The notes: generated by a model not told the origin, from the letters alone. A stretch of 26,097 bases of DNA from a virus (UHGV-0386553); one strand, 5' to 3'; positions 1 through 24,183 are shown, numbered from the stretch's first letter. Made by a program: numbers and translations.

Positions 1-683
1 GTATAATATGAGTTAAAAACAGCGGCATTTTTGCCTTTGGATATCAACTCCTTAATCATAAAAATATTATCTTCGTAATCAAAAGGAGAAATTATATCCC
101 TCATTTTGCTTTGAAATGTTCGTTGTCTTGCCCCGCTTCCTGACGGTATAAACCAACCAAAACCACCAACAACTCCGGCGATTGCAGCATCGACATAATT
201 ACGCATTGAGCGATTATTTACAGCATCCTGCTCAAGTGATGGATCTGCAAGGTTAGAAATTCTGTTTTGCTTTGCATCGTAATATTTTGCAAGCAAAGAT
301 GGTTTCATCAATGCACGTCTGAACCACCCAAAACATTGCTGGATCAGCATCGTCAGGTAGTCAAAAGCATCTTCATGCACTTCGGGGAAAAATTTTCCCT
401 GATTGCGAAGGTCTGTCTCCTGCACTACATCAAGCACACGATCTATCGTAATTCGCCATCCAGCAGCAAGCGGAGACGGAAGAACAACAGAACCGCCACT
501 ATAAGTGCCCGCCCCAGTTACCGTATAACCGGTATCCAGAACCAATTCTGTTACGTTCCCGTTCAGGTCAGACACCTGAACAACCAGGTCGGATTTTTTG
601 AAAATACGGAAGGTATACGGAAATGATGTCGTAACGCCGTTACCTGTGTATTCGTTGTGGTCAACTTCGGTTGAGACCGTCAT
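1..683 (-). CDS. Tail fibre / tailspike protein, N-terminal part; gene continues beyond the left edge of the window
   Basis: Manual reverse-strand translation from ATG at 681-683 (GGAG 8 nt upstream) gives MTVSTEVDHNEYTGNGVTTSFPYTFRIFKKSDLVVQV..., open to position 1. The pattern resembles the conserved N-terminal virion-attachment domain of podovirus tail fibres (T7 gp17-like). Absent from the ORF track because no stop lies in the window. Confidence 0.65.
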   Translation of the reverse strand, partial: MTVSTEVDHNEYTGNGVTTSFPYTFRIFKKSDLVVQVSDLNGNVTELVLDTGYTVTGAGTYSGGSVVLPSPLAAGWRITIDRVLDVVQETDLRNQGKFFPEVHEDAFDYLTMLIQQCFGWFRRALMKPSLLAKYYDAKQNRISNLADPSLEQDAVNNRSMRNYVDAAIAGVVGGFGWFIPSGSGARQRTFQSKMRDIISPFDYEDNIFMIKELISKGKNAAVFNSYY

Positions 684-786
684 GTTAAATCTCCAGATAG
701 TCGCAGCACCCGTTGCGCCGCATATCTGGCTATTCTATTACCTGAAAAACCACATATGGATAGAAATACTGTGAATACGAATAGAT

Positions 787-803
787 ATTACCTTTCAGGT
801 AAT
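787..803. promoter_or_regulatory. Operator-like inverted repeat, copy 1 (ATTACC-TTTCA-GGTAAT)
   Basis: Perfect 6-5-6 inverted repeat, about 90 nt upstream of the ORF starting at 879. One of five related copies in the window. Confidence 0.55.
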
Positions 804-839
804 TTGCAAAACGTGCTGGATAGCAAACAAATTATTTGT

Positions 840-859
840 TACTGTATAAATATACAGTT
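840..859 (+). promoter_or_regulatory. LexA (SOS) box
   Basis: tACTGTATAAATATACAGtt is CTGT-N8-ACAG and matches the E. coli LexA consensus TACTGTATATATATACAGTA at 18 of 20 positions. It lies 20 nt upstream of the ATG at 879, overlapping the likely promoter. Confidence 0.7.
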
Positions 860-878
860 ATTGCATGGAGAAGATAAG

Positions 879-1136
879 ATGCAGCAGTATCACTATCCAC
901 TGGAAGACGGATTTACCGAAAGGATTCACACGCCGGGAGGCGTCAGGTCACTGGTGGAGGGATCGCACTTGATGAAATTACTCCGGGATCTCGATAAGGA
1001 TGGATTTAATGTCGATGGCCCACTTGCCGAACTGACTGCACTGATTAACTACGTCACCAGCTCACAGATGTCTATGCGGGATCTGCAAACACATCTCGAC
1101 TATTGTGCCGAACAATTACGAAAGCAAACCACATAA
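879..1136 (+). CDS. Small protein (85 aa) homologous to the C-terminal domain of the Bro-N protein; candidate SOS-controlled antirepressor
   Basis: ATG at 879 with GGAG 8 nt upstream. The track ORF 756..1136 is shortened because the LexA box lies inside the longer frame. Product MQQYHYPLEDGFTERIHTPGGVRSLVEGSHLMKLLRDLDKDGFNVDGPLAELT...RDLQTH aligns by eye with residues about 150-220 of the Bro-N protein (roughly 40 percent identity). Confidence 0.6.
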   Translation: MQQYHYPLEDGFTERIHTPGGVRSLVEGSHLMKLLRDLDKDGFNVDGPLAELTALINYVTSSQMSMRDLQTHLDYCAEQLRKQTT

Positions 1137-1158
1137 AGAAAAGGCCGCAAGAGCGGCC
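1133..1158 (-). terminator. Intrinsic terminator for the leftward two-gene operon
   Basis: GGCCGC-AAGA-GCGGCC perfect 6-bp stem at 1143-1158; on the minus strand it is followed by TTTTCTTT. It sits between the convergent genes 879..1136 and 1160..1666. Confidence 0.55.
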
Positions 1159-1159
1159 A

Positions 1160-1666
1160 TTAACAGTCGAAAAATTCTGGGTCCCACAAACTTGCATCGC
1201 GCGGCATGGATTCTAACTTTTTCAGCCGCAAAATTCTGTCACACTCGACAACTAATTTTTGCTTCTGCTCGTCAATTTCTACTGTCTTATGTGCTGGTTC
1301 ATCCCAATAATCCAGAAGGAAGGCATGGCGTTCAGATGTGACCAGATAAATCACATACACGTCACTGGTTGGGATCTTTTTATGCTTGTTAGTGGTCTTG
1401 TCTTTCTTCCCAGACGCCCAGTTTTTCCAGCATTGTTCCGTACCGCTCTCACCAAACTTGTCAGTATAGTTTCCGATGTTTACATGAACGTGGCGTATGT
1501 GATATTCCAGCATCTCTTTCGGTGGATCCCGAAACAGAGTGTCCTTTCCGAAATCCTTATGATGACCGTAGCGCCAGTGATCTATGAACGCGTTTTTGAT
1601 AGGTATTAGCTCAGGGTCCTTCCCAAAAATTCCAGGGTGAACCAACCCCTGGAATTTATTCGGCAT
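1160..1666 (-). CDS. YafO-like toxin-domain protein (168 aa); putative toxin
   Basis: Track ORF 1160..1729; preferred start is the ATG at 1664-1666 (GGAG 10 nt upstream), which overlaps the last codons of the upstream gene. Motifs FGKDTLFRD, HIRHVHVNIGN and YVIYLVTSERHAFLLDYWDEPAHK recall E. coli YafO (FGRDALYDD, AHIHLAN, HLVYCQGAFDEQAWLLIAILKPEPHK). Comparison is from memory. Confidence 0.55.
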   Translation of the reverse strand: MPNKFQGLVHPGIFGKDPELIPIKNAFIDHWRYGHHKDFGKDTLFRDPPKEMLEYHIRHVHVNIGNYTDKFGESGTEQCWKNWASGKKDKTTNKHKKIPTSDVYVIYLVTSERHAFLLDYWDEPAHKTVEIDEQKQKLVVECDRILRLKKLESMPRDASLWDPEFFDC

Positions 1667-2183
1667 CGTCGTAGAGCTCCTGAGCCATATCTTCAGCAGT
1701 GCGTGCAAACATCCTGCGCGAGATTGCATGGGATTTCTCTACGGACATCTTTGGGACCTCATACATAACAAGTTGATGAGTTTTCTCATCAACTTGAAGT
1801 GGCTTGTATAAACGTTGCCACCTTTCGTTAATTTTATCCTTAAAGCCAGCGAAACCACTTTCCTGACTCTTGTATCCAAAATGAGATAAAGCCAAATTCC
1901 TTTCCATTTCATTCCTAATGTACTCAGCAAGGTTGCAGTGGAATACTTCCCCTTGTTTTTTTAGGCATGCTTCATGGTCTGTAACACTGTGACGGCTCTC
2001 ATATAAGTAAATGCGATAGGAATTTTTATTATCCTCTTCTTCATAATTTCTAATCGCATCAGCAGTTGCCATAGCTGCAGCGTAAGCGGCTGCTTCAATC
2101 ACCATCTCTTGCTCTTTTTCTTTTTCAGGCCTTTTCAAGGCAAAGCGTCTATGCCTCATCGCTGTAACTCTCTTCGTGTTCAT
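1656..2183 (-). CDS. Hypothetical protein (175 aa), basic N-terminus and acidic C-terminus; putative partner or antitoxin of the downstream YafO-like gene
   Basis: Track ORF 1656..2195 starts at TTG; the ATG at 2181-2183 gives MNTKRVTAMRH... Its 3' end overlaps the downstream start (ATGCCGAATAA). The C-terminus is acidic (ELYDDAE). No family recognised. Confidence 0.55.
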   Translation of the reverse strand: MNTKRVTAMRHRRFALKRPEKEKEQEMVIEAAAYAAAMATADAIRNYEEEDNKNSYRIYLYESRHSVTDHEACLKKQGEVFHCNLAEYIRNEMERNLALSHFGYKSQESGFAGFKDKINERWQRLYKPLQVDEKTHQLVMYEVPKMSVEKSHAISRRMFARTAEDMAQELYDDAE

Positions 2184-2195
2184 GGGCACCCCCAA

Positions 2196-2210
2196 CTACC
2201 TTTAGGGTAA
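2196..2210. promoter_or_regulatory. Operator-like inverted repeat, copy 5, degenerate (CTACC-TTTAG-GGTAA)
   Basis: Lies between the predicted -10 and the start codon of the leftward operon. Confidence 0.4.
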
Positions 2211-2212
2211 AC

Positions 2213-2242
2213 ATTCTATCGAAAGTATACGCTCACTGGCAA
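2213..2242 (-). promoter_or_regulatory. Sigma70-like promoter of the two-gene operon
   Basis: Minus-strand reading: TTGCCA (2242-2237), 18-nt spacer, TAGAAT (2218-2213), about 30 nt upstream of the ATG at 2183. Confidence 0.45.
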
Positions 2243-2319
2243 AAAAATAGGCAGGTATTTTCTGAAATGGGATCAATCAAACCACATAGGGTTGAAATGA
2301 CGTGAGTTATGCATTTATT

Positions 2320-2336
2320 ATTACCTTTACGGTAAA
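2320..2336. promoter_or_regulatory. Operator-like inverted repeat, copy 2 (ATTACC-TTTAC-GGTAAA)
   Basis: Inverted repeat in the divergent region between the leftward operon and the Bro-N gene. A possible rightward promoter TTGAAA (2292-2297)-N18-TATTAT (2316-2321) overlaps it. Confidence 0.5.
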
Positions 2337-2369
2337 TTTACATCGCACTCCTCTTGTGCCATAGTAATC

Positions 2370-2391
2370 GGGCACTGGCAAAATCCAGTGC
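2370..2391. promoter_or_regulatory. Perfect 8-bp-stem hairpin (GGCACTGG-CAAAAT-CCAGTGCC) of unknown role
   Basis: Seen directly; it has no flanking T-tract on either strand, so it is not a typical terminator. The motif CACTGGCAAAA recurs at 2233-2243. Confidence 0.35.
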
Positions 2392-2602
2392 CGGGATTGG
2401 CGTTCCGGATTACTACAGAGGCACATATGCCGCATAAGCGGTTTTTTTATGTGTAAAGCGCACCTATTCTATGGTGGGCTGTGTGGGGGCACCGAAAGGT
2501 GCGCCGGGTTCCTTTGTAGCCGGTTACGCCAACCCTGCACAGTTCACCACCAACCGATTGGCGTCGGTAGTGGTGATTAACCTAACTACAAAGGTGATCA
2601 CT

Positions 2603-3289
2603 ATGACTGCTAACGTAACCCCATCTGTTTTTCATTTTGAATCAGAAGCAACCATTCGAGCCATTGTTATTGATGGAAATCCTTGGTTTGTTGCCAAAGA
2701 CGTTATTAAAGCTCTTCAACTGACAAACCCCACTATGTCAATAAAATCTCTTGATGATGATGAAAGGGCTAAATTTAACTTAGGCCGTCAAGGCGAAACC
2801 AATATTATCAACGAGTCAGGCCTCTACACACTGATCCTCCGCTGCCGCGACGCAGTGACACCAGGCACTATCCCCTACCGCTTTCGTAAATGGGTTACAG
2901 GTGAGGTTCTTCCTCAGATCCGTCGCACCGGAAGTTACATTAAAAACTCGCTCCCGCAGGAAGAACGCATAAAGATGGTTGCCGACCAGGTAGCCAACGC
3001 CACGGCGTCAGCAGTAATGCAGGCGATGAAGATAGAGAACAAAACCTACAGCGCCCCGCTGAAGCCCGGCTACCGCAGCCTGATTCATTCGCCGTCTGGT
3101 GTTCTCGGCCTGACGGAGAACTCACTGCTGATGAATCTGCTGAACCAGTTACAGGAAGACGGGCACGACGTATCGGGCGCGGCGGCGGAGCTGACCACCA
3201 TGTTCTGTTACATCGTTGGTGTGAGCAAATGCCTGCGTGATATCCAGACGCACGCGGAGTACATCAACGACAAGGCAGGGTTCTTCTGA
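2603..3289 (+). CDS. Bro-N domain protein (228 aa), antirepressor-like
   Basis: ATG at 2603 with AAGGTG RBS; the track ORF starts at 2471 but the upstream part is GC-rich leader. N-terminus VFHFESEATIRAIVIDGNPWFVAKDVIKALQL...NESGLYTLILRCR matches the Bro-N signature (F.F....R.....G..WF.A.DV...L; NESGLY.LIL). The C-terminal domain is paralogous to the product of 879..1136. Confidence 0.7.
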   Translation: MTANVTPSVFHFESEATIRAIVIDGNPWFVAKDVIKALQLTNPTMSIKSLDDDERAKFNLGRQGETNIINESGLYTLILRCRDAVTPGTIPYRFRKWVTGEVLPQIRRTGSYIKNSLPQEERIKMVADQVANATASAVMQAMKIENKTYSAPLKPGYRSLIHSPSGVLGLTENSLLMNLLNQLQEDGHDVSGAAAELTTMFCYIVGVSKCLRDIQTHAEYINDKAGFF

Positions 3290-3296
3290 CGGCGGC

Positions 3297-3320
3297 GGCA
3301 CAGGGACGTGCCTTTAAATA
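3297..3320 (+). terminator. Weak terminator-like hairpin after the Bro-N gene
   Basis: GGCAC-AGGGAC-GTGCC followed by TTTAAATAATT. Short stem. Confidence 0.3.
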
Positions 3321-3332
3321 ATTCTGTACAGA

Positions 3333-3361
3333 TTGCAGACTGTGGGTGAATAGCGTACTAT
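3333..3361 (+). promoter_or_regulatory. Sigma70-like promoter of the 55-aa / 147-aa cassette
   Basis: TTGCAG (3333-3338), 17-nt spacer, TACTAT (3356-3361); operator copy 3 starts at the end of the -10. Confidence 0.45.
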
Positions 3362-3376
3362 TACCTTAAAGGTAAA
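3360..3376. promoter_or_regulatory. Operator-like inverted repeat, copy 3 (ATTACC-TTAAA-GGTAAA)
   Basis: Overlaps the -10/+1 region and abuts the AGGAGG RBS of the ORF starting at 3388. Confidence 0.55.
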
Positions 3377-3387
3377 GGAGGCGCGAT

Positions 3388-3555
3388 ATGACAGCGTTGA
3401 AAAATCGTACTCAGCACAATGAACAAGCCAAGCAATGCTGGGATGTCATTGGAAAAGTTATGCTTGGCCGCGCAAGCAAAGAGCGCGACAAGGATATGGT
3501 TTACCAGACAGGAACATCTTTCAGCGACTTCAAGGCGGCATTTCGCTCCAAATAG
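3388..3555 (+). CDS. Small hypothetical protein (55 aa)
   Basis: ATG at 3388 preceded by AAGGAGG at optimal spacing; manual translation MTALKNRTQHNEQAKQCWDVIGKVMLGRASKERDKDMVYQTGTSFSDFKAAFRSK, stop TAG at 3553-3555. Below the size cut-off of the ORF track. Confidence 0.45.
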   Translation: MTALKNRTQHNEQAKQCWDVIGKVMLGRASKERDKDMVYQTGTSFSDFKAAFRSK

Positions 3556-3575
3556 AAGCACATCAGGAGTTTTCC

Positions 3576-4016
3576 TTGAAGTTTAACATTAGAATATCTA
3601 ATAGTTTTCTACATGGGGAAAGCAACACCCCTTTCGCTGTAGACGGACCTTTCCTTACTGATGATGAAATAAAAATCATACAAAGTTTTTTAGAGGATGT
3701 TGCCAATGGAAGGGCGCTTGTTGGAAAAAACAAGCCCTCGTGGGTTGATGATAACCATGATAAAATTCCCGGCTCAGACAATTATGAGCAAGAGAATTAT
3801 TGGCATTATCATTGTGGGCCAACATGGTATCCAAACACATTTAAGAATTATACCATTAACTTAAATTTCAACCCTGGCGGAAGGCATTCTAATGAATGCA
3901 TTCATTATGCAAAAAATGATAATGAAATTGTCATTGTTGGATTTTCAAGAGAACACATACCTTTCCTTTCATCAGATGGAAACAACAATCCGCTTTTTAA
4001 TGATGAAGAAGAATAG
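3576..4016 (+). CDS. Hypothetical protein (about 146 aa), AT-rich
   Basis: Track ORF 3435..4016 overlaps the 55-aa ORF in another frame. Preferred start is TTG at 3576 with AGGAG 7 nt upstream; no in-frame ATG exists. A strong terminator follows. Sequence ...WHYHCGPTWYPNTFKNY...; no family recognised. Confidence 0.45.
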   Translation: MKFNIRISNSFLHGESNTPFAVDGPFLTDDEIKIIQSFLEDVANGRALVGKNKPSWVDDNHDKIPGSDNYEQENYWHYHCGPTWYPNTFKNYTINLNFNPGGRHSNECIHYAKNDNEIVIVGFSREHIPFLSSDGNNNPLFNDEEE

Positions 4017-18608: not shown

Positions 18609-20284
18609 TGTGATTGCCCACCCTGACCACTAACTGCATTCGCCATAGCTGACAAAACACTCGGATCCGAAGTTTTAGCTTCGCTTAGCGTCTTGGCCCC
18701 CTGTGCCGCCGCCATCCCCATCGCCATCATTTGTTGCTGCTGTTGCTGCTGTGCCCGTTGCTGGCGAGCCTGCTCAACCTGTTCCTGCGGAACAATGACG
18801 GTTGGAGACACTCCTGACATATCAGCGAATGCATCGATCGCCTGATCAACGTTGAGTTTGTCGAGAGCTTCTGGTTTCGCTTGCGCAAGTTGACCAATGA
18901 AGTTAACCGTGGACGCCAGACTGGACAGGCCGATAGACTTCTGCGCCTGAGCCATGACGGAAATGTATTCGACCTTCAGGGGCATGCCTTCCATCGCGTC
19001 AGGCGGTGGCGGCAGCATGTTTTTACGCACCATCATCGAGAAAGCGCGGTCAATGAGAGGATTAAGACATTCGTCGTTCAGACGCTCCAGAACCGGCCCC
19101 AACATCAGAAGTTTTTCTTCTTTCATTTCGATCACCGCTTCAACAGGCATCGAGCGGGTATTGATGTTCTGCAACATCATGAACAGATCGACAAAGTAGG
19201 CGCTGTTAATGATTTGACGAGTGTCCTGAATGTCTGCCACCAAATCTGCTGTACTGGGGTTAACCAGATAAGCAGGCCTGAAGCCATCCTGACCAGTAAT
19301 CTGATCGATATACGTGATGTCGCCAGGAAGAAGGGAGGCGCGCTGATTCTTGAGGGAAGTCGGAGCAACCATCGGCGGATTGGTGGCTTTATCAATCAAC
19401 TGCGACTTGCGCTTCTGGAGAAGCTGCAATGCCTTAACAGGTCCAAGCGCCAGCATACCCGGGCATGATGATCCATAAACATCTTCGCCGTTAACTTCCC
19501 AGCGCGGAGCCATAATTGGAAACTCATCGAATCCGGACTCACGCAACAACTTGTCGTTATCGCCACCAACCTCGTAATAAACCGATTTGAATGGCTTGTT
19601 CTTGCTATCCAGCTTCGATGTATCGCGCTCAATGTTCGGGTAAACCGAATGCATCACTTCAATCCACTTCTCGTAGGTGCCGCTTTCCCACATGCTTTTT
19701 ACGGATTCGCTGACGTTATTTAGCCCGAACTCCTGAACAAGCTGACGAACAGTCATAGAGAACTTGCGGAAACAGGTGTCCACACTGCCACGAGGTGAGT
19801 TAGCCAGGTAGTAACTGCCTATAGGGAATGGCATTGTGCGAATGATGTCCTCGTCATCCTCCAGCACCGCCATTGCACCAGTGCTGTATGTGCCGAGGCT
19901 TCCGTATAACTGCGGAAGAGACTGGTAGAGATTCGACTTATTGAACATATCGTTCATGCGGTTCTGCACCGCCTCAAGCCACAACTTAACAGGGCCATAA
20001 TCCATCATTTCAGGATCTGGCGTAGCCAGGCGAAACCACGGACGGGCGGGGCTTGTGATGCCTGACATCATGCCGCTGGCGAGAGTGCGCGCCGCCATAG
20101 TCCCGGTCGAATCAATAATGCGTGTATTGCGTCGATCGTTACGGTTGACCTCAGAAGTCAGAAAGCGGGAACCACGCGGGTTGATGTAATCACTCAACTC
20201 GCGCCAGTGCGGCTCGAACGACTGACGCTCGCTTTCAAGTTGTGCGAACTGTTTGTTCAATCGCTCTTTAGTTGTTTCCGCCAT
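18605..20284 (-). CDS. Portal (head-to-tail connector) protein, T7 gp8-type (559 aa)
   Basis: Size; Gln/Met-rich C-terminal tail QQQQQQQMMAMGMAAAQGA as in T7 gp8; GGAG RBS; immediately upstream of the scaffold and capsid genes. Confidence 0.75.
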   Translation of the reverse strand: MAETTKERLNKQFAQLESERQSFEPHWRELSDYINPRGSRFLTSEVNRNDRRNTRIIDSTGTMAARTLASGMMSGITSPARPWFRLATPDPEMMDYGPVKLWLEAVQNRMNDMFNKSNLYQSLPQLYGSLGTYSTGAMAVLEDDEDIIRTMPFPIGSYYLANSPRGSVDTCFRKFSMTVRQLVQEFGLNNVSESVKSMWESGTYEKWIEVMHSVYPNIERDTSKLDSKNKPFKSVYYEVGGDNDKLLRESGFDEFPIMAPRWEVNGEDVYGSSCPGMLALGPVKALQLLQKRKSQLIDKATNPPMVAPTSLKNQRASLLPGDITYIDQITGQDGFRPAYLVNPSTADLVADIQDTRQIINSAYFVDLFMMLQNINTRSMPVEAVIEMKEEKLLMLGPVLERLNDECLNPLIDRAFSMMVRKNMLPPPPDAMEGMPLKVEYISVMAQAQKSIGLSSLASTVNFIGQLAQAKPEALDKLNVDQAIDAFADMSGVSPTVIVPQEQVEQARQQRAQQQQQQQMMAMGMAAAQGAKTLSEAKTSDPSVLSAMANAVSGQGGQSQ

Positions 20285-20505: not shown

Positions 20506-20594
20506 ATCAATGACTCCGTACGCAATTAAATTATTACCAATTTAACGACATATGATTTATTTATCGTAGATAGTTGACATTTAATGCACGAATT

Positions 20595-20611
20595 ATTACC
20601 CTTCAGGTAAG
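20595..20611. promoter_or_regulatory. Operator-like inverted repeat, copy 4 (ATTACC-CTTCA-GGTAAG)
   Basis: 16 nt downstream of a consensus -35 TTGACA (20574-20579); faces the rightward tRNA / Gp49-like unit. Confidence 0.5.
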
Positions 20612-20864
20612 TAAATAGTTCATTCCGGTTATTAACCTGACTGGCTTGTCGTTAAATTGAACAGGTGGAGTGAGCTTTTATTTTGAGCAGTACGGCGTAT
20701 GGCACATGCGACGATAGCGGTCTGGATACGTTTAAGGGGCACCCTCCCTTGCTCGGGCAAACGAACCAGGTAGCCGGAATGTGCAAGTCGAGCGGTTTTA
20801 TTCCGCGCACGGGGATTCACCATCCCGGCGATTTGGTGTGACGCCTCGGAAGAGACGAGGGTAC

Positions 20865-20932
20865 AACGCTGAGAGCATTTATGGAGCCGCGACAAAGTGT
20901 GGCGCCTTAACAGGCTAAGTGCTCTCAGCGTT
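20865..20932 (+). other. 13-bp perfect inverted repeat (AACGCTGAGAGCA ... TGCTCTCAGCGTT) forming a long stem-loop abutting the tRNA 5' end
   Basis: Arms at 20865-20877 and 20920-20932 with a 42-nt loop; the tRNA starts at 20934. Possible precursor-processing structure or small RNA. Confidence 0.4.
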
Positions 20933-20933
20933 G

Positions 20934-21009
20934 TGGCATTAGCTCAGTTGGACAGAGCAACCGCCTTCTAAGAGGTTGGTCGCAGGTTCGAATCCTGCAT
21001 GCCACGCCA
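20934..21009 (+). tRNA. tRNA-Arg (anticodon UCU, reads AGA)
   Basis: Manual cloverleaf: acceptor GTGGCAT/ATGCCAC, D-arm GCTC-AGTTGGACA-GAGC, anticodon loop CTTCTAA (U33, anticodon TCT, A37), T-arm GCAGG-TTCGAAT-CCTGC, discriminator G, encoded CCA. One G-A mismatch in the anticodon stem. Resembles E. coli argU. Confidence 0.8.
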
Positions 21010-23130: not shown

Positions 23131-23723
23131 TGATTGCCATCCTGACGTTCTTTCAGTCTCTTCCTGGCTGCCGCTATGCGATCAGCAATTGTCACATTCA
23201 CATTAACATCCAGACGTTCTTTGAACGCGTTGACATCAACATGCTTACCAATCAGCTCAAGGTTCTTCACCTTGTCAGGCCATTTAATTTTTTTGAGGAT
23301 TGTCTCTATCGAATCCTCGTTCATGTTCATGATGGTCGATGACAGATCAAAGCCACTAAGCGTAGTGCGCCAGATTTTCGGCCACTCACGGATTGGTTTA
23401 AGGCTCCCATCGTCGTTGAGGATATCGATCACGTCCATCTGGTCGATCTCCACCAGGCGCATGAGAACGTAATCAGCACTGACGCGCATTCGTTTGTTGC
23501 GCTCCTCCATCAACTCGGCAATCCGTTTTTGAATGCGTTCATCGCGCATCATGACACTGGCTTTAACTGCCGCTGTATTTGGGGAGAATCCTGCGTTAAT
23601 CGCTGCCTGAGTCTGGTTTTCAGGCGTTTTGATGTATGACTGGCAATAAGCCTCCTGCATTGCTGTTAGTGGCTTAAATTGCGTTGATTTGCGTTTATAG
23701 GTTTTAGGTTCAGCAGGCATCAT
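23127..23723 (-). CDS. Terminase small subunit, P27-type (about 198 aa from the Met-Met start)
   Basis: Track ORF 23127..23801; preferred start is MMPAEPKTYKRK... at 23721-23723 because the upstream in-frame codons are tandem DNA repeats. N-terminal region LTAMQEAYCQSYIKTPENQTQAAINAGFSPNTAAVKAS is the typical small-terminase HTH signature. Confidence 0.7.
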   Translation of the reverse strand: MMPAEPKTYKRKSTQFKPLTAMQEAYCQSYIKTPENQTQAAINAGFSPNTAAVKASVMMRDERIQKRIAELMEERNKRMRVSADYVLMRLVEIDQMDVIDILNDDGSLKPIREWPKIWRTTLSGFDLSSTIMNMNEDSIETILKKIKWPDKVKNLELIGKHVDVNAFKERLDVNVNVTIADRIAAARKRLKERQDGNQ

Positions 23724-23730
23724 AACCACC

Positions 23731-23762
23731 GTGGTAATAGTTACCGTTGTGGTAATAGTACC
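23731..23762. repeat. Tandem direct repeat GTGGTAATAGT(T)ACC x2, each containing the palindrome GGTAA-N3-TTACC
   Basis: Seen directly, just upstream of the terminase small-subunit start. Confidence 0.5.
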
Positions 23763-23832: not shown

Positions 23833-23844
23833 CGTGACATGTCA
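23833..23844. repeat. 12-bp perfect palindrome GTGACATGTCAC, copy 2
   Basis: Identical to the copy at 21569-21580; overlaps the stop codon of the 113-aa ORF. Confidence 0.5.
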
Positions 23845-24183
23845 CACTATTAATTTCGTTTCATGCCAGCCTTTAGTCACCCAGCATTGCGAGTCACCAT
23901 TGCACGGGCATGAATTAACTGGAACTCTCTCGCCGCACTTACCGCAACGTTTTCTGCTGATCGATTTTATACGCCCGCGCACGCGTGCATCATCCTGGCG
24001 GATCAGTAACGCTATATACTCACCAAATTCGTAAGGCGCACGCCCGGGGCGACGCGTGGCACAGTTACGCTCCAGCATTTCAATTTCCTGAGCATCAAGC
24101 ACAATTTCCAGCTTACGCACACCAGATGCAGCTTGTCTGGCTCTCTGAGCGGCTTTGCGCTCTGCTGCTGATTTAGCCATCAA
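23842..24183 (-). CDS. Small basic protein with C-terminal Cys cluster (113 aa), possibly DNA-binding
   Basis: C-terminal C-x2-C ... C-P-C ... C motif suggests a zinc ribbon; the N-terminal basic and helical part may be RHH-like (weak). Start overlaps the ASCH gene end. Confidence 0.45.
   Translation of the reverse strand: MMAKSAAERKAAQRARQAASGVRKLEIVLDAQEIEMLERNCATRRPGRAPYEFGEYIALLIRQDDARVRGRIKSISRKRCGKCGERVPVNSCPCNGDSQCWVTKGWHETKLIV

What the first reader, a model, noticed from the sequence alone, without database searches (positions are those of the whole stretch)
735..2340. Duplicated regulatory region upstream of the two Bro-related paralogues
Segments about 735-805 and 2268-2340 share a collinear pattern (TGAAA..AACCACATA.GG...GAAAT...ATTACCTTT..GGTAA) with the same spacing of about 40 nt between the AACCACATA box and the palindrome. 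The first lies before the LexA-box gene, the second before the Bro-N gene. This suggests the gene and its control region duplicated together, with only one copy gaining or retaining the LexA box.
Basis: seen in the sequence. Interest (0 to 1): 0.45.

Follow-up and report, generated by a model that had tools for sequence, protein, structure and literature searches.

The report
Shared repressor operators at two antirepressor promoters
The two look-alike stretches are real, but they are two copies of a standard control unit (the prophage repressor's binding site plus a second conserved palindrome around a promoter) that an epsilon15/SPC32H-type E. coli prophage uses at many promoters, so this is an ordinary, largely known lysis-lysogeny switch and not a freshly duplicated gene with its control region.

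Summary
Observation confirmed. Segments 735-805 and 2268-2340 align far above chance (score 39 vs 14.5+/-2.4; 0/2000 shuffles). The similarity rests on two palindromes at fixed spacing: a box AACC-N6-GGTT (748-761; 2280-2293) and, 26-27 nt on, TTACC-N5-GGTAA (788-802; 2321-2335). With these removed, the spacer (p=0.09) and downstream flank are not significantly similar.

TTACC-N5-GGTAA is the predicted operator of the prophage repressor. The epsilon15 RefSeq record annotates it as a repressor site, including at the copy-1 position. It clusters around the repressor gene in five related genomes and abuts -10 hexamers.

The window is an epsilon15/phiV10/SPC32H-type (Uetakevirus) prophage. The LexA-box gene is the SPC32H Ant antirepressor (PDB 5D50_E, E=5e-47). 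Copy 2 is the promoter of an isrK-C4 RNA leader followed by a Bro-N protein whose C-terminal 78 residues are 41% identical to Ant.

The paralogy is real, but co-duplication of gene plus control region is not supported. The same box-operator unit serves unrelated genes, and the sequence between control region and gene is unrelated in the two cases.

The box is conserved genus-wide, is not annotated in the epsilon15 record, and has an unknown binder. It is the only possibly new element. Verdict: new member of a known kind; modest interest.

The parts
735..763 (-). Putative leftward promoter of the tailspike gene (ATG at 683, minus strand): -35 CTATCC (763->758), -10 TAATAG (740->735). The box occupies about -33 to -20.
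   Evidence: Inferred from geometry shared with phiV10 p06, p25 and p27: the -10 hexamer always falls at positions 22-27 counted from the first base of the box. The -35 is weak. Not tested.
748..761 (.). Box 1: AACCACATATGGAT, a copy of the palindrome AACC-N6-GGTT with one arm mismatch.
   Evidence: Conserved among 63 distinct variants of the copy-1 region while the next ~20 nt vary. Present in epsilon15, SPC32H and Klebsiella BUCT711 with the same 26-nt gap to the operator.
761..789 (+). Weak sigma-70-like promoter core between box 1 and operator 1: TAGAAA-17-GATATT (8/12).
   Evidence: Same geometry as the copy-2 promoter. Below the threshold of the tool scan. Activity not tested.
788..802 (.). 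Operator 1: TTACCTTTCAGGTAA (extended ATTACC-N5-GGTAAT, 787-803), the predicted Rep operator.
   Evidence: The homologous site in epsilon15 is annotated 'protein_bind: repressor'. Also present upstream of ant in SPC32H.
840..859 (.). LexA box TACTGTATAAATATACAGTT (CTGT-N8-ACAG, 842-857) at the promoter of the small antirepressor gene.
   Evidence: a perfect match, and the only perfect one that is AT-rich and at a promoter. A LexA site overlapping the ant promoter is described for SPC32H (Kim & Ryu 2013, recalled from memory; listed in the references of PMC7380047).
879..1136 (+). ant: an 85-aa SPC32H-type antirepressor (homologue of phiV10 p24 and epsilon15 gp19).
   Evidence: PDB 5D50 chain E 'Anti-repressor protein', E=4.6e-47; phrog_450.
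1125..1135 (.). CAAACCACATA: a half-box at the 3' end of ant, forming the left copy of the 11-bp direct repeat that bounds the inserted cargo module.
   Evidence: Alignment with phiV10, where the complete Pant box overlaps the ant stop codon.
1160..2183 (-). Inserted two-gene cargo. RefSeq names the 169-aa product a 'YafO family toxin'; a 175-aa partner lies upstream. The module is absent from phiV10.
   Evidence: Pfam and NCBIfam gave no match, so the name is RefSeq's only.
2196..2242 (-). Promoter of the cargo operon, TTGCCA-18-TAGAAT (2242->2213), followed by the operator-like CTACCTTTAGGGTAA (2196-2210, one mismatch).
2280..2293 (.). Box 2: AACCACATAGGGTT. Its last two bases overlap the -35 hexamer, and its centre lies about 41.5 bp upstream of the predicted transcription start.
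   Evidence: AACCA.ATA.G.TT is invariant among 45 distinct Pant sequences from three unrelated upstream contexts.
2292..2321 (+). Promoter of the isrK-C4-antirepressor operon (Pant, equivalent to PisrK): TTGAAA-18-TATTAT (10/12).
   Evidence: The hexamers are conserved and the spacer is variable among relatives. In Gifsy-1, PisrK drives isrK-orf45-anrP (PMC4825925).
2321..2335 (.). Operator 2: TTACCTTTACGGTAA. It starts at the last base of the -10 hexamer and covers the predicted transcription start.
2372..2448 (+). isrK-type RNA with an intrinsic terminator (2429-2442 plus a T run).
   Evidence: Rfam RF01394, 71.2 bits against a gathering score of 50; terminator scan.
2467..2554 (+). C4-type antisense RNA. 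Its loop CCUUUGUAG (2511-2519) is complementary to CUACAAAGG (2586-2594), which overlaps the Shine-Dalgarno sequence of the Bro-N gene.
   Evidence: Rfam RF01695, 84 bits against 45; exact 9-nt complement; the leader folds with z=-6.9.
2603..3289 (+). Second antirepressor: a Bro-N domain (residues 18-104) fused to an Ant-like C-terminal domain (residues ~147-224).
   Evidence: Pfam PF02498, E=5e-20. BLASTP against ant: 41% identity over 78 aa, E=2e-16. phrog_130 and phrog_450. A Bro-N antirepressor of the relative ZX5 lowers lysogeny when overexpressed (PMC9782041).
3333..3375 (+). A further operator-bearing promoter: TTGCAG-17-TACTAT followed by TTACCTTAAAGGTAA (3361-3375), upstream of two ORFs of unknown function (3388-3555, 3576-4016).

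Best explanation
Each segment is one copy of a bipartite promoter-control unit of an epsilon15/SPC32H-type prophage. A 14-bp palindrome AACC-N6-GGTT (the 'box') is followed by 26-27 bp holding a sigma-70 promoter core. Then comes the 15-bp palindrome TTACC-N5-GGTAA, the operator of the prophage repressor Rep, which starts at the last base of the -10 hexamer and covers the transcription start.

Copy 2 is the promoter of the isrK-C4-(Bro-N::Ant-like) operon. Copy 1 lies back to back with the tailspike promoter and about 55 bp upstream of the LexA-controlled ant promoter.

Proposed working (inferred): in the lysogen, Rep on the operators silences Pant and the weak copy-1 promoter, while LexA silences the ant promoter. 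That promoter lies downstream of operator 1, so Rep does not block it. DNA damage removes LexA, and Ant is made. Ant dismantles Rep tetramers, as shown for SPC32H. All operator-controlled promoters then open, including Pant. Its transcript yields a second antirepressor carrying the same Rep-binding domain, gated after transcription by the isrK terminator and by C4 RNA pairing with its ribosome-binding site. This gives positive feedback on induction.

The two segments look alike because both must bind the same proteins in the same geometry, not because a segment was recently copied.
For: Shown here:
- The alignment is far above chance, but the signal is confined to the two palindromes.
- TTACC-N5-GGTAA is enriched: 7 sites vs 0.35 expected in the window and 14 vs 0.65 in phiV10. 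It clusters on both sides of the repressor gene in phiV10, GN02461, Tyrion, epsilon15, SPC32H and BUCT711.
- It is the only 5-N-5 palindrome with more than 2 perfect copies in BUCT711, where it has 9.
- The epsilon15 RefSeq record annotates it as 'protein_bind: repressor', including at the copy-1 position.
- Operator arms abut promoter-like hexamer pairs in 22/103 cases against 13/403 for isolated TTACC pentamers (odds ratio 8.1, p=1e-8).
- Phylogenetic footprint: across 45 distinct Pant sequences only the box, the -10 region and the operator are invariant. The copy-1 region shows the same pattern across 63 distinct variants.
- Phasing is fixed: box to operator 40.5-44.5 bp centre to centre, operator to operator 62 bp (61 at one GN02461 pair).
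- Proteins: Ant matches 5D50_E. Rep of the genome identical over 600-3600 matches 5D50_A, has two HTH domains and no S24 peptidase domain.
- isrK and C4 by Rfam; the C4 loop is complementary to the RBS.

From the literature:
- Rep binds palindromic DNA as a tetramer, and Ant breaks the tetramer (PMC9638917; PMC9986798).
- Overexpressing the repressor or a Bro-N antirepressor in phage ZX5 shifts the lysis-lysogeny balance as expected (PMC9782041).
Against: - No binding data for Rep on these sequences were accessible. The operator assignment rests on an annotation that is itself a prediction, plus genomic distribution.
- The repressor gene is not in the window. It is taken from a genome identical over 600-3600, which differs elsewhere.
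- The copy-1 promoter is weak (8/12) and may not fire. Operator 1 may instead serve the tailspike promoter or act only as an anchor.
- All transcription starts are predicted, not mapped.
- The protein that binds the box is unknown.
- If the lysogenic-conversion gene oac is expressed in lysogens, an operator at its putative promoter is unexpected.
- All genomes compared share the same operator core, so no covariation test was possible.
Confidence: 0.75

Rival explanations
1. One reading: an ancestral antirepressor gene and its control region duplicated as one segment. One copy kept or gained the LexA box. The other acquired the isrK/C4 leader and a Bro-N domain. Only the selected binding sites remain recognisable.
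For: The coding regions are paralogous over the Ant domain. Both have the box-operator unit upstream with almost the same spacing, 26 vs 27 nt. The upstream flanks are marginally similar (p=0.03). At 41% protein identity, neutral DNA would no longer be alignable, so absence of spacer similarity does not exclude an old event.
Against: There is no significant similarity outside the two motifs. The same unit stands before unrelated genes. The sequence between control region and gene is non-homologous. The isrK-C4 leader is shared with lambdoid, Stx and Gifsy phages that carry other antirepressors. epsilon15 and SPC32H have copy 1 but no second gene.
Confidence: 0.12
2. The box and the operator are read by different proteins. 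The operator is bound by Rep. The box is bound by a second phage regulator, for example the p55/gp49-like regulator (window 23842-24183, minus strand) acting as a late activator that replaces a poor -35 at the head, tailspike and lysis promoters, or the Cro-like protein.
For: In phiV10 the box lies at about -33 to -20 of three late-gene promoters, with the -10 hexamer at a fixed register, and two of the three have very poor -35 hexamers. No box is found in the repressor/cro intergenic region. The half-site spacing differs by 1 bp from the operator's. Candidate regulators exist: phrog_536 and phrog_35.
Against: Every well-conserved box lies 19.5-52.5 bp from an operator, at roughly whole numbers of helical turns. 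Box-like sequences also lie inside the spacers of early promoters (PL-like and p45), between paired operators, where a late activator is not expected. The p27 lysis promoter (TTAACC-17-TATAAT) looks constitutive and needs a repressor in the lysogen.
Confidence: 0.4
3. The repeat is a by-product of cargo insertion: the right-hand unit arrived with, or was created by, insertion of the YafO-annotated module through recombination at the box. It is a recombination scar and not a regulatory element.
For: The module 1137-2277 is bounded by the 11-bp direct repeat CAAACCACATA. Other loci carry different cargo at the same spot.
Against: Loci without any insert have a complete box-promoter-operator unit at Pant with identical spacing, and the unit is under clear purifying selection.
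Confidence: 0.05
4. Chance resemblance of two AT-rich intergenic regions.
For: None beyond the AT-richness of both regions.
Against: 0 of 2000 shuffles and 0 of 2951 random window pairs reach the observed score. Both motifs are enriched and conserved across genera.
Confidence: 0.01

Closest known systems
Rep-Ant lytic switch of Salmonella phage SPC32H (Kim & Ryu 2013, J Virol 87:11775; Kim et al. 2016 PNAS; PDB 5D50/5D4Z)
   Same: The small gene is about 87% identical to SPC32H Ant, and the repressor is a clear homologue of Rep with no autocleavage domain. There is a LexA box at the ant promoter. The gene order is the same (tailspike <- -> ant). The same TTACC-N5-GGTAA palindrome lies upstream of ant and around rep.
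   Different: SPC32H and epsilon15 have only the LexA-controlled ant. This prophage adds a second, RNA-gated antirepressor carrying the Ant-like domain behind its own operator-bearing promoter, with a cargo module inserted between the two.
Predicted repressor-binding sites of phage epsilon15 (RefSeq NC_004775 features 'protein_bind: repressor'; Kropinski et al. 2007, Virology 369:234)
   Same: The sequence is identical in kind (ATTACC-N5-GGTAAT) and the positions are homologous, including one between gp19 (ant) and the tail-fibre gene.
   Different: The epsilon15 record lists 5 sites and does not annotate the AACC-N6-GGTT box. It places a predicted IHF site in the spacer. Nothing in that record covers a Pant unit, because epsilon15 lacks the operon.
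immI of phage P1/P7 and immA of N15: antirepressor operons controlled by a c4-type antisense RNA (Rfam RF01695), with a promoter under the primary repressor (my own knowledge: Heinrich et al. 1995; Ravin et al. 1999); N15 also has a separate LexA-controlled antirepressor AntC (Mardanov & Ravin 2007)
   Same: A C4-family RNA lies upstream of the antirepressor gene and is complementary to its ribosome-binding region. An operator of the prophage repressor sits on the operon promoter. An SOS-controlled and an RNA-controlled antirepressor coexist in one phage.
   Different: There is no icd gene; a 43-aa ORF follows isrK instead. The repressor family (Rep) and operator are different. Here the two antirepressors share a homologous domain.
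Gifsy-1 isrK-orf45-anrP locus (Hershko-Shalev et al. 2016, PMC4825925)
   Same: The order is the same: promoter, IsrK RNA with a leaky terminator, short ORF, antirepressor-like gene.
   Different: The promoter-control sequences are different, and the downstream protein is different. No AntQ link is evident here.
Cooperative, phased operators of lambda-type switches (OR/OL; auxiliary operators and looping)
   Same: Multiple operator copies lie at fixed helical phase around promoters (62, ~41.5 and 19.5 bp) and are bound by an oligomeric repressor (tetramer).
   Different: The operators are dispersed over 14-15 sites in the genome, a distribution more like P1 C1, and are paired with a second motif class.

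Membership tests
SPC32H-type Rep-Ant antirepression system | Small (~86 aa) Ant protein homologous to SPC32H Ant | tested here: met
   5D50_E, E=4.6e-47 over residues 2-85.
SPC32H-type Rep-Ant antirepression system | LexA-binding site at the ant promoter | tested here: met
   A perfect CTGT-N8-ACAG with an AT-rich core at 842-857, 22 nt before the ATG. LexA binding itself was not tested.
SPC32H-type Rep-Ant antirepression system | Non-cleavable Rep homologue (no S24 peptidase domain) | tested here: met
   Rep of genome NZ_CP095533 (100% identical to window 600-3600) matches 5D50_A at E=4e-42. It has HTH_3 and YdaS-like HTH domains only. The gene lies outside the window.
SPC32H-type Rep-Ant antirepression system | Ant binds Rep and releases it from DNA | not testable with these tools
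   Known for SPC32H only from secondary summaries.
Rep operator (ATTACC-N5-GGTAAT) as annotated for epsilon15 | Sequence matches the annotated repressor sites | tested here: met
   788-802 and 2321-2335 are exact TTACC-N5-GGTAA. The epsilon15 sites are ATTACC-N5-GGTAAT.
Rep operator (ATTACC-N5-GGTAAT) as annotated for epsilon15 | Copies flank the repressor gene and overlap promoters | tested here: met
   Clusters on both sides of rep in six genomes. The operator abuts -10 hexamers with odds ratio 8.1, p=1e-8.
Rep operator (ATTACC-N5-GGTAAT) as annotated for epsilon15 | Operator changes together with repressor specificity in heteroimmune relatives | tested here: inconclusive
   All relatives examined (E. 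coli, Salmonella, Enterobacter, Klebsiella) keep the same core motif, so there was no variation to test.
Rep operator (ATTACC-N5-GGTAAT) as annotated for epsilon15 | Direct binding by Rep | not testable with these tools
   The primary papers are not held.
c4-type antisense-RNA-controlled antirepressor operon (P1 immI / N15 immA) | C4 RNA upstream of the antirepressor gene on the same strand | tested here: met
   RF01695, 84 bits (gathering score 45) at 2467-2554.
c4-type antisense-RNA-controlled antirepressor operon (P1 immI / N15 immA) | C4 loop complementary to the translation-initiation region of the target | tested here: met
   The 9-nt exact complement 2511-2519 / 2586-2594 overlaps the Shine-Dalgarno sequence of the ATG at 2603.
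c4-type antisense-RNA-controlled antirepressor operon (P1 immI / N15 immA) | icd gene between c4 and ant | tested here: not met
   Only a 43-aa ORF (2449-2580) that overlaps C4. The arrangement resembles Gifsy-1 isrK-orf45-anrP instead.
IsrK RNA (RF01394) | Covariance-model match above the gathering score, with a terminator | tested here: met
   71.2 bits against 50 at 2372-2448; terminator at 2429-2442.
   Spacer p=0.09, downstream flank p=0.31, upstream flank p=0.03.
   75 nt with the LexA promoter in one case; about 270 nt of isrK/C4 plus a Bro-N domain in the other.
   41% identity over 78 aa, E=2e-16, confined to the C-terminal domain.

The most novel reading that the evidence does not exclude
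The AACC-N6-GGTT box is a second class of operator. Together with TTACC-N5-GGTAA, four helical turns away, it would let one Rep tetramer, which offers two DNA-binding units formed in trans, clamp both sides of a promoter. The unit would then be a two-way silencer: the operator covers the start site of the promoter reading one way (the antirepressor genes), and the box covers the -35/spacer of the promoter reading the other way (tailspike, lysis and head genes). That would tie late-gene silencing and antirepressor silencing to the same Rep complex, and would give the unusual Rep tetramer structure a natural DNA substrate.
Probability: 0.35. Interest if true: 0.5.

Novelty: new member of a known kind. 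Interest (0 to 1): 0.3.

Why it matters
The result places this E. coli prophage in the experimentally studied SPC32H Rep-Ant family. It suggests how the switch is wired when a second antirepressor is present. Both antirepressor promoters carry the repressor's own operator. One is additionally under LexA, and the other is gated by the isrK and C4 RNAs. That arrangement predicts SOS-triggered induction with positive feedback. The analysis also points to a conserved second palindrome, not annotated in the epsilon15 record, that accompanies the operator at fixed helical phase across the genus. This is a concrete, cheap target for binding assays with Rep and two candidate regulators. For annotation, it indicates that the RefSeq start of the BRO gene runs through the C4 RNA, and that the site between ant and Pant is a hot spot for cargo insertion.

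Tried and rejected
1. Covariation of the operator with repressor type. I fetched epsilon15, Tyrion, SPC32H and Klebsiella BUCT711 hoping for a different operator. All share TTACC-N5-GGTAA, so the test has no power.
2. Primary literature on Rep operators and the ant promoter (Kim & Ryu 2013; Kim et al. 2016; Kropinski et al. 2007) is not held under DOI or PMC id. Only secondary summaries and the epsilon15 feature table could be used.
3. Recent segmental duplication was rejected after masking the motifs.
4. My first promoter-proximity control was biased, because the operator supplies the last T of the -10 hexamer. I replaced it with isolated TTACC pentamers as the control.
5. The 80 IMG/VR loci found with Ant were all 98-100% identical in the gene. 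They were useful for promoter footprints and insert classes but not for deep divergence.
6. Pfam and NCBIfam did not confirm the RefSeq name 'YafO family toxin'.
7. An RNA duplex energy for C4 against the target was only marginally better than shuffles (p about 0.05). I rely on the exact 9-nt loop/RBS complement instead.
8. The degenerate LexA-like match in the copy-1 spacer (769-784) is at chance level.
9. Assigning the box to IHF, DnaA, CRP/FNR or lambda CII-type sites was considered from memory of their consensus sequences and dropped, because the conserved arms do not fit.
Full report
**1. What the window is.**
Bases 600-3600 are 100% identical to a prophage in E. coli GN02461 inserted next to guaA. 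They are 93-97% identical, in pieces, to phiV10, TL-2011b, ZX5 and other members of the genus Uetakevirus, the epsilon15-like podoviruses. The window runs from the 5' end of the tailspike gene (minus strand, ATG at 683) through the structural genes to the terminase genes and the end of the early-right operon. The finding lies in the short region that interrupts the late genes on the opposite strand. In P22 the immI region occupies the equivalent place (from my own knowledge).

**2. The observation.**
Segments 735-805 and 2268-2340 align with score 39. Two thousand dinucleotide shuffles give 14.5 +/- 2.4 and none reaches 39. Among 2951 random pairs of window segments the maximum is 28.

The signal sits in two palindromes:
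- AACC-N6-GGTT, called 'the box' here: 748-761 AACCACATATGGAT and 2280-2293 AACCACATAGGGTT.
- TTACC-N5-GGTAA, called 'the operator' here: 788-802 and 2321-2335.

The gap between them is 26 and 27 nt. When both motifs are masked, the spacers (p=0.09) and the downstream flanks (p=0.31) are no more alike than shuffles. The upstream flanks are marginal (p=0.03).

**3. The operator.**
- Enrichment: TTACC-N5-GGTAA (up to 1 mismatch) occurs 7 times in the window against 0.35 expected, and 14 times in phiV10 against 0.65 expected.
- Location: in phiV10, GN02461, Tyrion, epsilon15, SPC32H and Klebsiella phage BUCT711 it clusters on both sides of the repressor gene. Two or three copies lie between the repressor and the divergent cro-like gene. 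Two or three more lie at the promoter just past the 3' end of the repressor gene. Further copies stand at the starts of other transcription units.
- Uniqueness: in BUCT711 it is the only 5-N-5 palindrome with more than two perfect copies; it has nine.
- Annotation: the epsilon15 RefSeq record marks five ATTACC-N5-GGTAAT sites as 'protein_bind: repressor'. One lies between gp19 and the tail-fibre gene, which is the copy-1 position.
- Promoter context: operator arms lie directly after a promoter-like hexamer pair (at least 8/12, with the -10 ending on the first T of TTACC) in 22 of 103 cases. For isolated TTACC pentamers the figure is 13 of 403 (odds ratio 8.1, p=1e-8). The genomes are related, so these counts are not independent.
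- Phasing: paired operators are 62 bp apart centre to centre in phiV10, Tyrion and epsilon15, and 61-62 bp in GN02461.

The repressor of the GN02461 prophage is a homologue of SPC32H Rep (PDB 5D50_A, E=4e-42). It has two HTH domains and no S24 peptidase domain. Rep is reported to bind palindromic DNA as a tetramer (PMC9638917; PMC9986798). I conclude that the palindrome is the Rep operator. This is an inference from distribution and annotation, not from binding data.

**4. The genes.**
- The 85-aa product of 879-1136 is about 87% identical to the SPC32H antirepressor Ant (5D50_E, E=4.6e-47).
- A perfect LexA box (CTGT-N8-ACAG, 842-857) lies 22 nt upstream of its ATG. In SPC32H, Ant expression is under LexA, and Ant inactivates the non-cleavable Rep. 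I recall this from the abstract of Kim & Ryu 2013, which is listed in the references of PMC7380047.
- The 228-aa product of 2603-3289 has a Bro-N domain (PF02498, E=5e-20). Its C-terminal domain is 41% identical to Ant over 78 residues (E=2e-16). So the paralogy is real but covers only the Ant domain. The first gene is not Bro-related in the Pfam sense.
- Among the 84 related sequences searched (80 IMG/VR loci plus the window, phiV10, Tyrion and epsilon15), 67 hold this second Ant-like domain. epsilon15 lacks it, as does SPC32H. In phiV10 it is split by a frameshift.
- Overexpression of the Bro-N antirepressor of the relative ZX5 lowers lysogeny, and overexpression of its repressor (identical to phiV10 p40) blocks lytic growth (PMC9782041).

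**5. What copy 2 drives.**
Immediately after operator 2 come three elements:
- an isrK-type RNA with a terminator (2372-2448, 71 bits);
- a C4-type antisense RNA (2467-2554, 84 bits);
- a 43-aa ORF (2449-2580) that overlaps C4.

The leader is strongly structured (z=-6.9). The C4 loop CCUUUGUAG (2511-2519) is the exact complement of CUACAAAGG (2586-2594), which overlaps the Shine-Dalgarno sequence of the Bro-N gene. This is the layout of Gifsy-1 PisrK-isrK-orf45-anrP (PMC4825925) and, in its antisense logic, of P1 immI and N15 immA (from my own knowledge).

The promoter TTGAAA-18-TATTAT (2292-2321, 10/12) was found by the mechanical scan. Operator 2 begins at its last base.

**6. Footprints.**
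The 80 IMG/VR loci fall into classes by what lies between ant and isrK:
- nothing: 32 loci, phiV10 type;
- a ~925-bp insert: 26 loci;
- the YafO-annotated insert: 5 loci, the class to which the window also belongs;
- other content, with no isrK found: 17 loci.

In all three classes that have Pant, the sequence upstream of the box is unrelated and the 17-nt spacer drifts. Four things are kept:
- the box (AACCAGATAAGGTT, AACCAAATACGGTT or AACCACATAGGGTT);
- a -35 hexamer overlapping its last two bases;
- the -10 region;
- the operator.

Across 45 distinct sequences the invariant columns are AACCA.ATA.G.TT, TTAT, TTACC and GGTAAAT. Copy 1 behaves the same way across 63 distinct variants: the box and operator are conserved and the ~20 nt between them vary. 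The box-26 nt-operator arrangement upstream of ant also persists in epsilon15, SPC32H and Klebsiella BUCT711.

**7. The box elsewhere.**
- Enrichment: AACCA-N4-TGGTT (up to 1 mismatch) occurs 9 times against 1.2 expected in phiV10 and 6 times against 0.85 in the window.
- Association with operators: all seven phiV10 matches to AAACCAnATA lie within about 45 nt of an operator.
- Spacing: box-to-operator centre distances are 40.5-44.5 bp at ant, Pant and oac/lysis, and at the PL-like and p45 units of Tyrion. The distance is 19.5 bp upstream of p42 and to the second operator of those three-part Tyrion units, and 52.5 bp at p06. These are roughly whole numbers of helical turns.
- Opposite strand: in phiV10 the box occupies about -33 to -20 of promoters for the head (p06), tailspike (p25) and lysis (p27) genes. 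The -10 hexamer is always at positions 22-27 counted from the first base of the box: TAATAA, TAATAG and TATAAT.

In the window this puts box 1 inside a putative leftward tailspike promoter (-10 TAATAG, 740->735). Box 2 has no such partner. The box is therefore a shared element of back-to-back promoters, and at Pant it sits about 41.5 bp upstream of the predicted start.

Who binds it is open. One possibility is Rep itself, using the box as an auxiliary site. This fits the constant association and phasing with operators, the similar ACC/GGT half-sites, and the need to silence a near-consensus lysis promoter in the lysogen. The other is a separate regulator, namely the p55/gp49-like or the Cro-like protein. 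This fits the absence of the box from the repressor/cro region, the poor -35 hexamers of two late promoters, and the half-site spacing, which is 1 bp longer than in the operator.

**8. Why the two segments look alike.**
Both are built from the same two binding sites around a promoter core, in the same geometry. The co-duplication idea is not needed, and three observations weigh against it. There is no similarity outside the motifs. The DNA between control region and gene is unrelated in the two cases. The same unit is present before non-paralogous genes. An ancient co-duplication cannot be excluded, because at 41% protein identity unselected DNA would be unrecognisable.

**9. Proposed mechanism.**
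The steps below are inferred unless marked otherwise.
- In the lysogen, Rep occupies the operators, blocking Pant and the weak copy-1 promoter. Together with the box it keeps the neighbouring late promoter quiet.
- LexA blocks the ant promoter. That promoter lies downstream of operator 1, with centres about 55 bp apart, so it is free of Rep.
- DNA damage removes LexA, and Ant is produced.
- Ant breaks up Rep tetramers (shown for SPC32H).
- Every operator-controlled promoter then opens, including Pant.
- Translation of the Bro-N::Ant-like protein remains subject to the isrK terminator and to C4 pairing with its RBS.
- Once made, that protein adds a second supply of the Rep-binding domain and reinforces commitment to lytic growth.

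**10. Side observations on mosaicism.**
- The cargo module 1137-2277 is bounded by the 11-bp repeat CAAACCACATA (1125-1135 and 2278-2288). This is the left half of the box, which in phiV10 overlaps the ant stop codon.
- Other loci carry a different minus-strand gene at the same place.
- The cargo promoter (TTGCCA-18-TAGAAT) is followed by an operator-like site (2196-2210).

**11. Verdict.**
The pattern is explained by a known kind of element, the operators of the prophage repressor at promoters of its own antirepressors, in a characterised family (SPC32H/epsilon15). The only possibly new item is the conserved, phased second palindrome. Interest is modest.

Noticed in passing
window 1125-1135 and 2278-2288 (module 1137-2277): The two-gene minus-strand cargo that RefSeq calls a YafO-family toxin system is bounded by an 11-bp direct repeat, CAAACCACATA. 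This is the left half of the box, which in phiV10 overlaps the ant stop codon. Other loci carry a different 242-aa minus-strand gene at the same spot, so this looks like an insertion hot spot.
   Followed up: partly
window 1160-1669 and 1656-2183 (minus strand): The RefSeq name 'type II toxin-antitoxin system YafO family toxin' could not be reproduced. Pfam and NCBIfam give no match for either protein, and PHROGs places both in families of unknown function.
   Followed up: partly
window 2196-2242 (minus strand): The cargo operon's promoter, TTGCCA-18-TAGAAT, is followed by an operator-like palindrome, CTACCTTTAGGGTAA. The inserted genes may therefore also be under the prophage repressor, which is unusual for cargo genes normally expressed in lysogens.
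   Followed up: no
window 2483-2602: RefSeq starts the BRO gene at 2483, inside the C4 RNA. The likely true start is the ATG at 2603, which has the Shine-Dalgarno sequence AAGGTGA and matches the start annotated for phiV10 p23. A 43-aa ORF (2449-2580) directly after the isrK terminator may correspond to Gifsy-1 orf45.
   Followed up: partly
window 3333-4016: A fourth operator-bearing promoter (TTGCAG-17-TACTAT plus TTACCTTAAAGGTAA at 3361-3375) precedes two conserved phage ORFs of unknown function (55 aa, phrog_8607; 146 aa, phrog_5954).
   Followed up: no
window 20545-21006: An operator (20596-20610) lies 15 nt after a perfect -35 hexamer, TTGACA (20575-20580), and faces a tRNA-Arg gene (20933-21006, plus strand). 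A degenerate box lies to its left. In phiV10 the same unit sits upstream of the head-gene block (p06) on the other strand.
   Followed up: partly
window 23723-23755: Two operator-like palindromes 18 bp apart (TAACCACCGTGGTAA and TTACCGTTGTGGTAA) lie inside the first codons of the small-terminase gene. They are conserved in phiV10 and Tyrion. Their purpose is unknown; a repressor site and a packaging signal are both possible.
   Followed up: no
L004 (phiV10) 19551-20230: phiV10 p23 (Bro-N) and the tiny p22 together match the Ant-like domain in two frames. They look like a frameshifted version of the Bro-N::Ant-like fusion seen in the window.
   Followed up: partly
L004 31953-32029 and 35070-35146; L087, L088 and L006 equivalents: Operator pairs lie 62 bp apart centre to centre at the PL-like and p45 promoters in phiV10, Tyrion and epsilon15, and 61-62 bp apart in the GN02461 prophage. 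A box-like sequence sits between them, 42.5 and 19.5 bp from the two operators. This suggests a phased multi-site repressor complex.
   Followed up: partly
window 769-784: A degenerate LexA-like sequence (CTGT-N8-ATAG) lies inside the spacer of copy 1. Other variants of this spacer have CCAT-N8-ACAG instead. The match is at chance level in the window.
   Followed up: no
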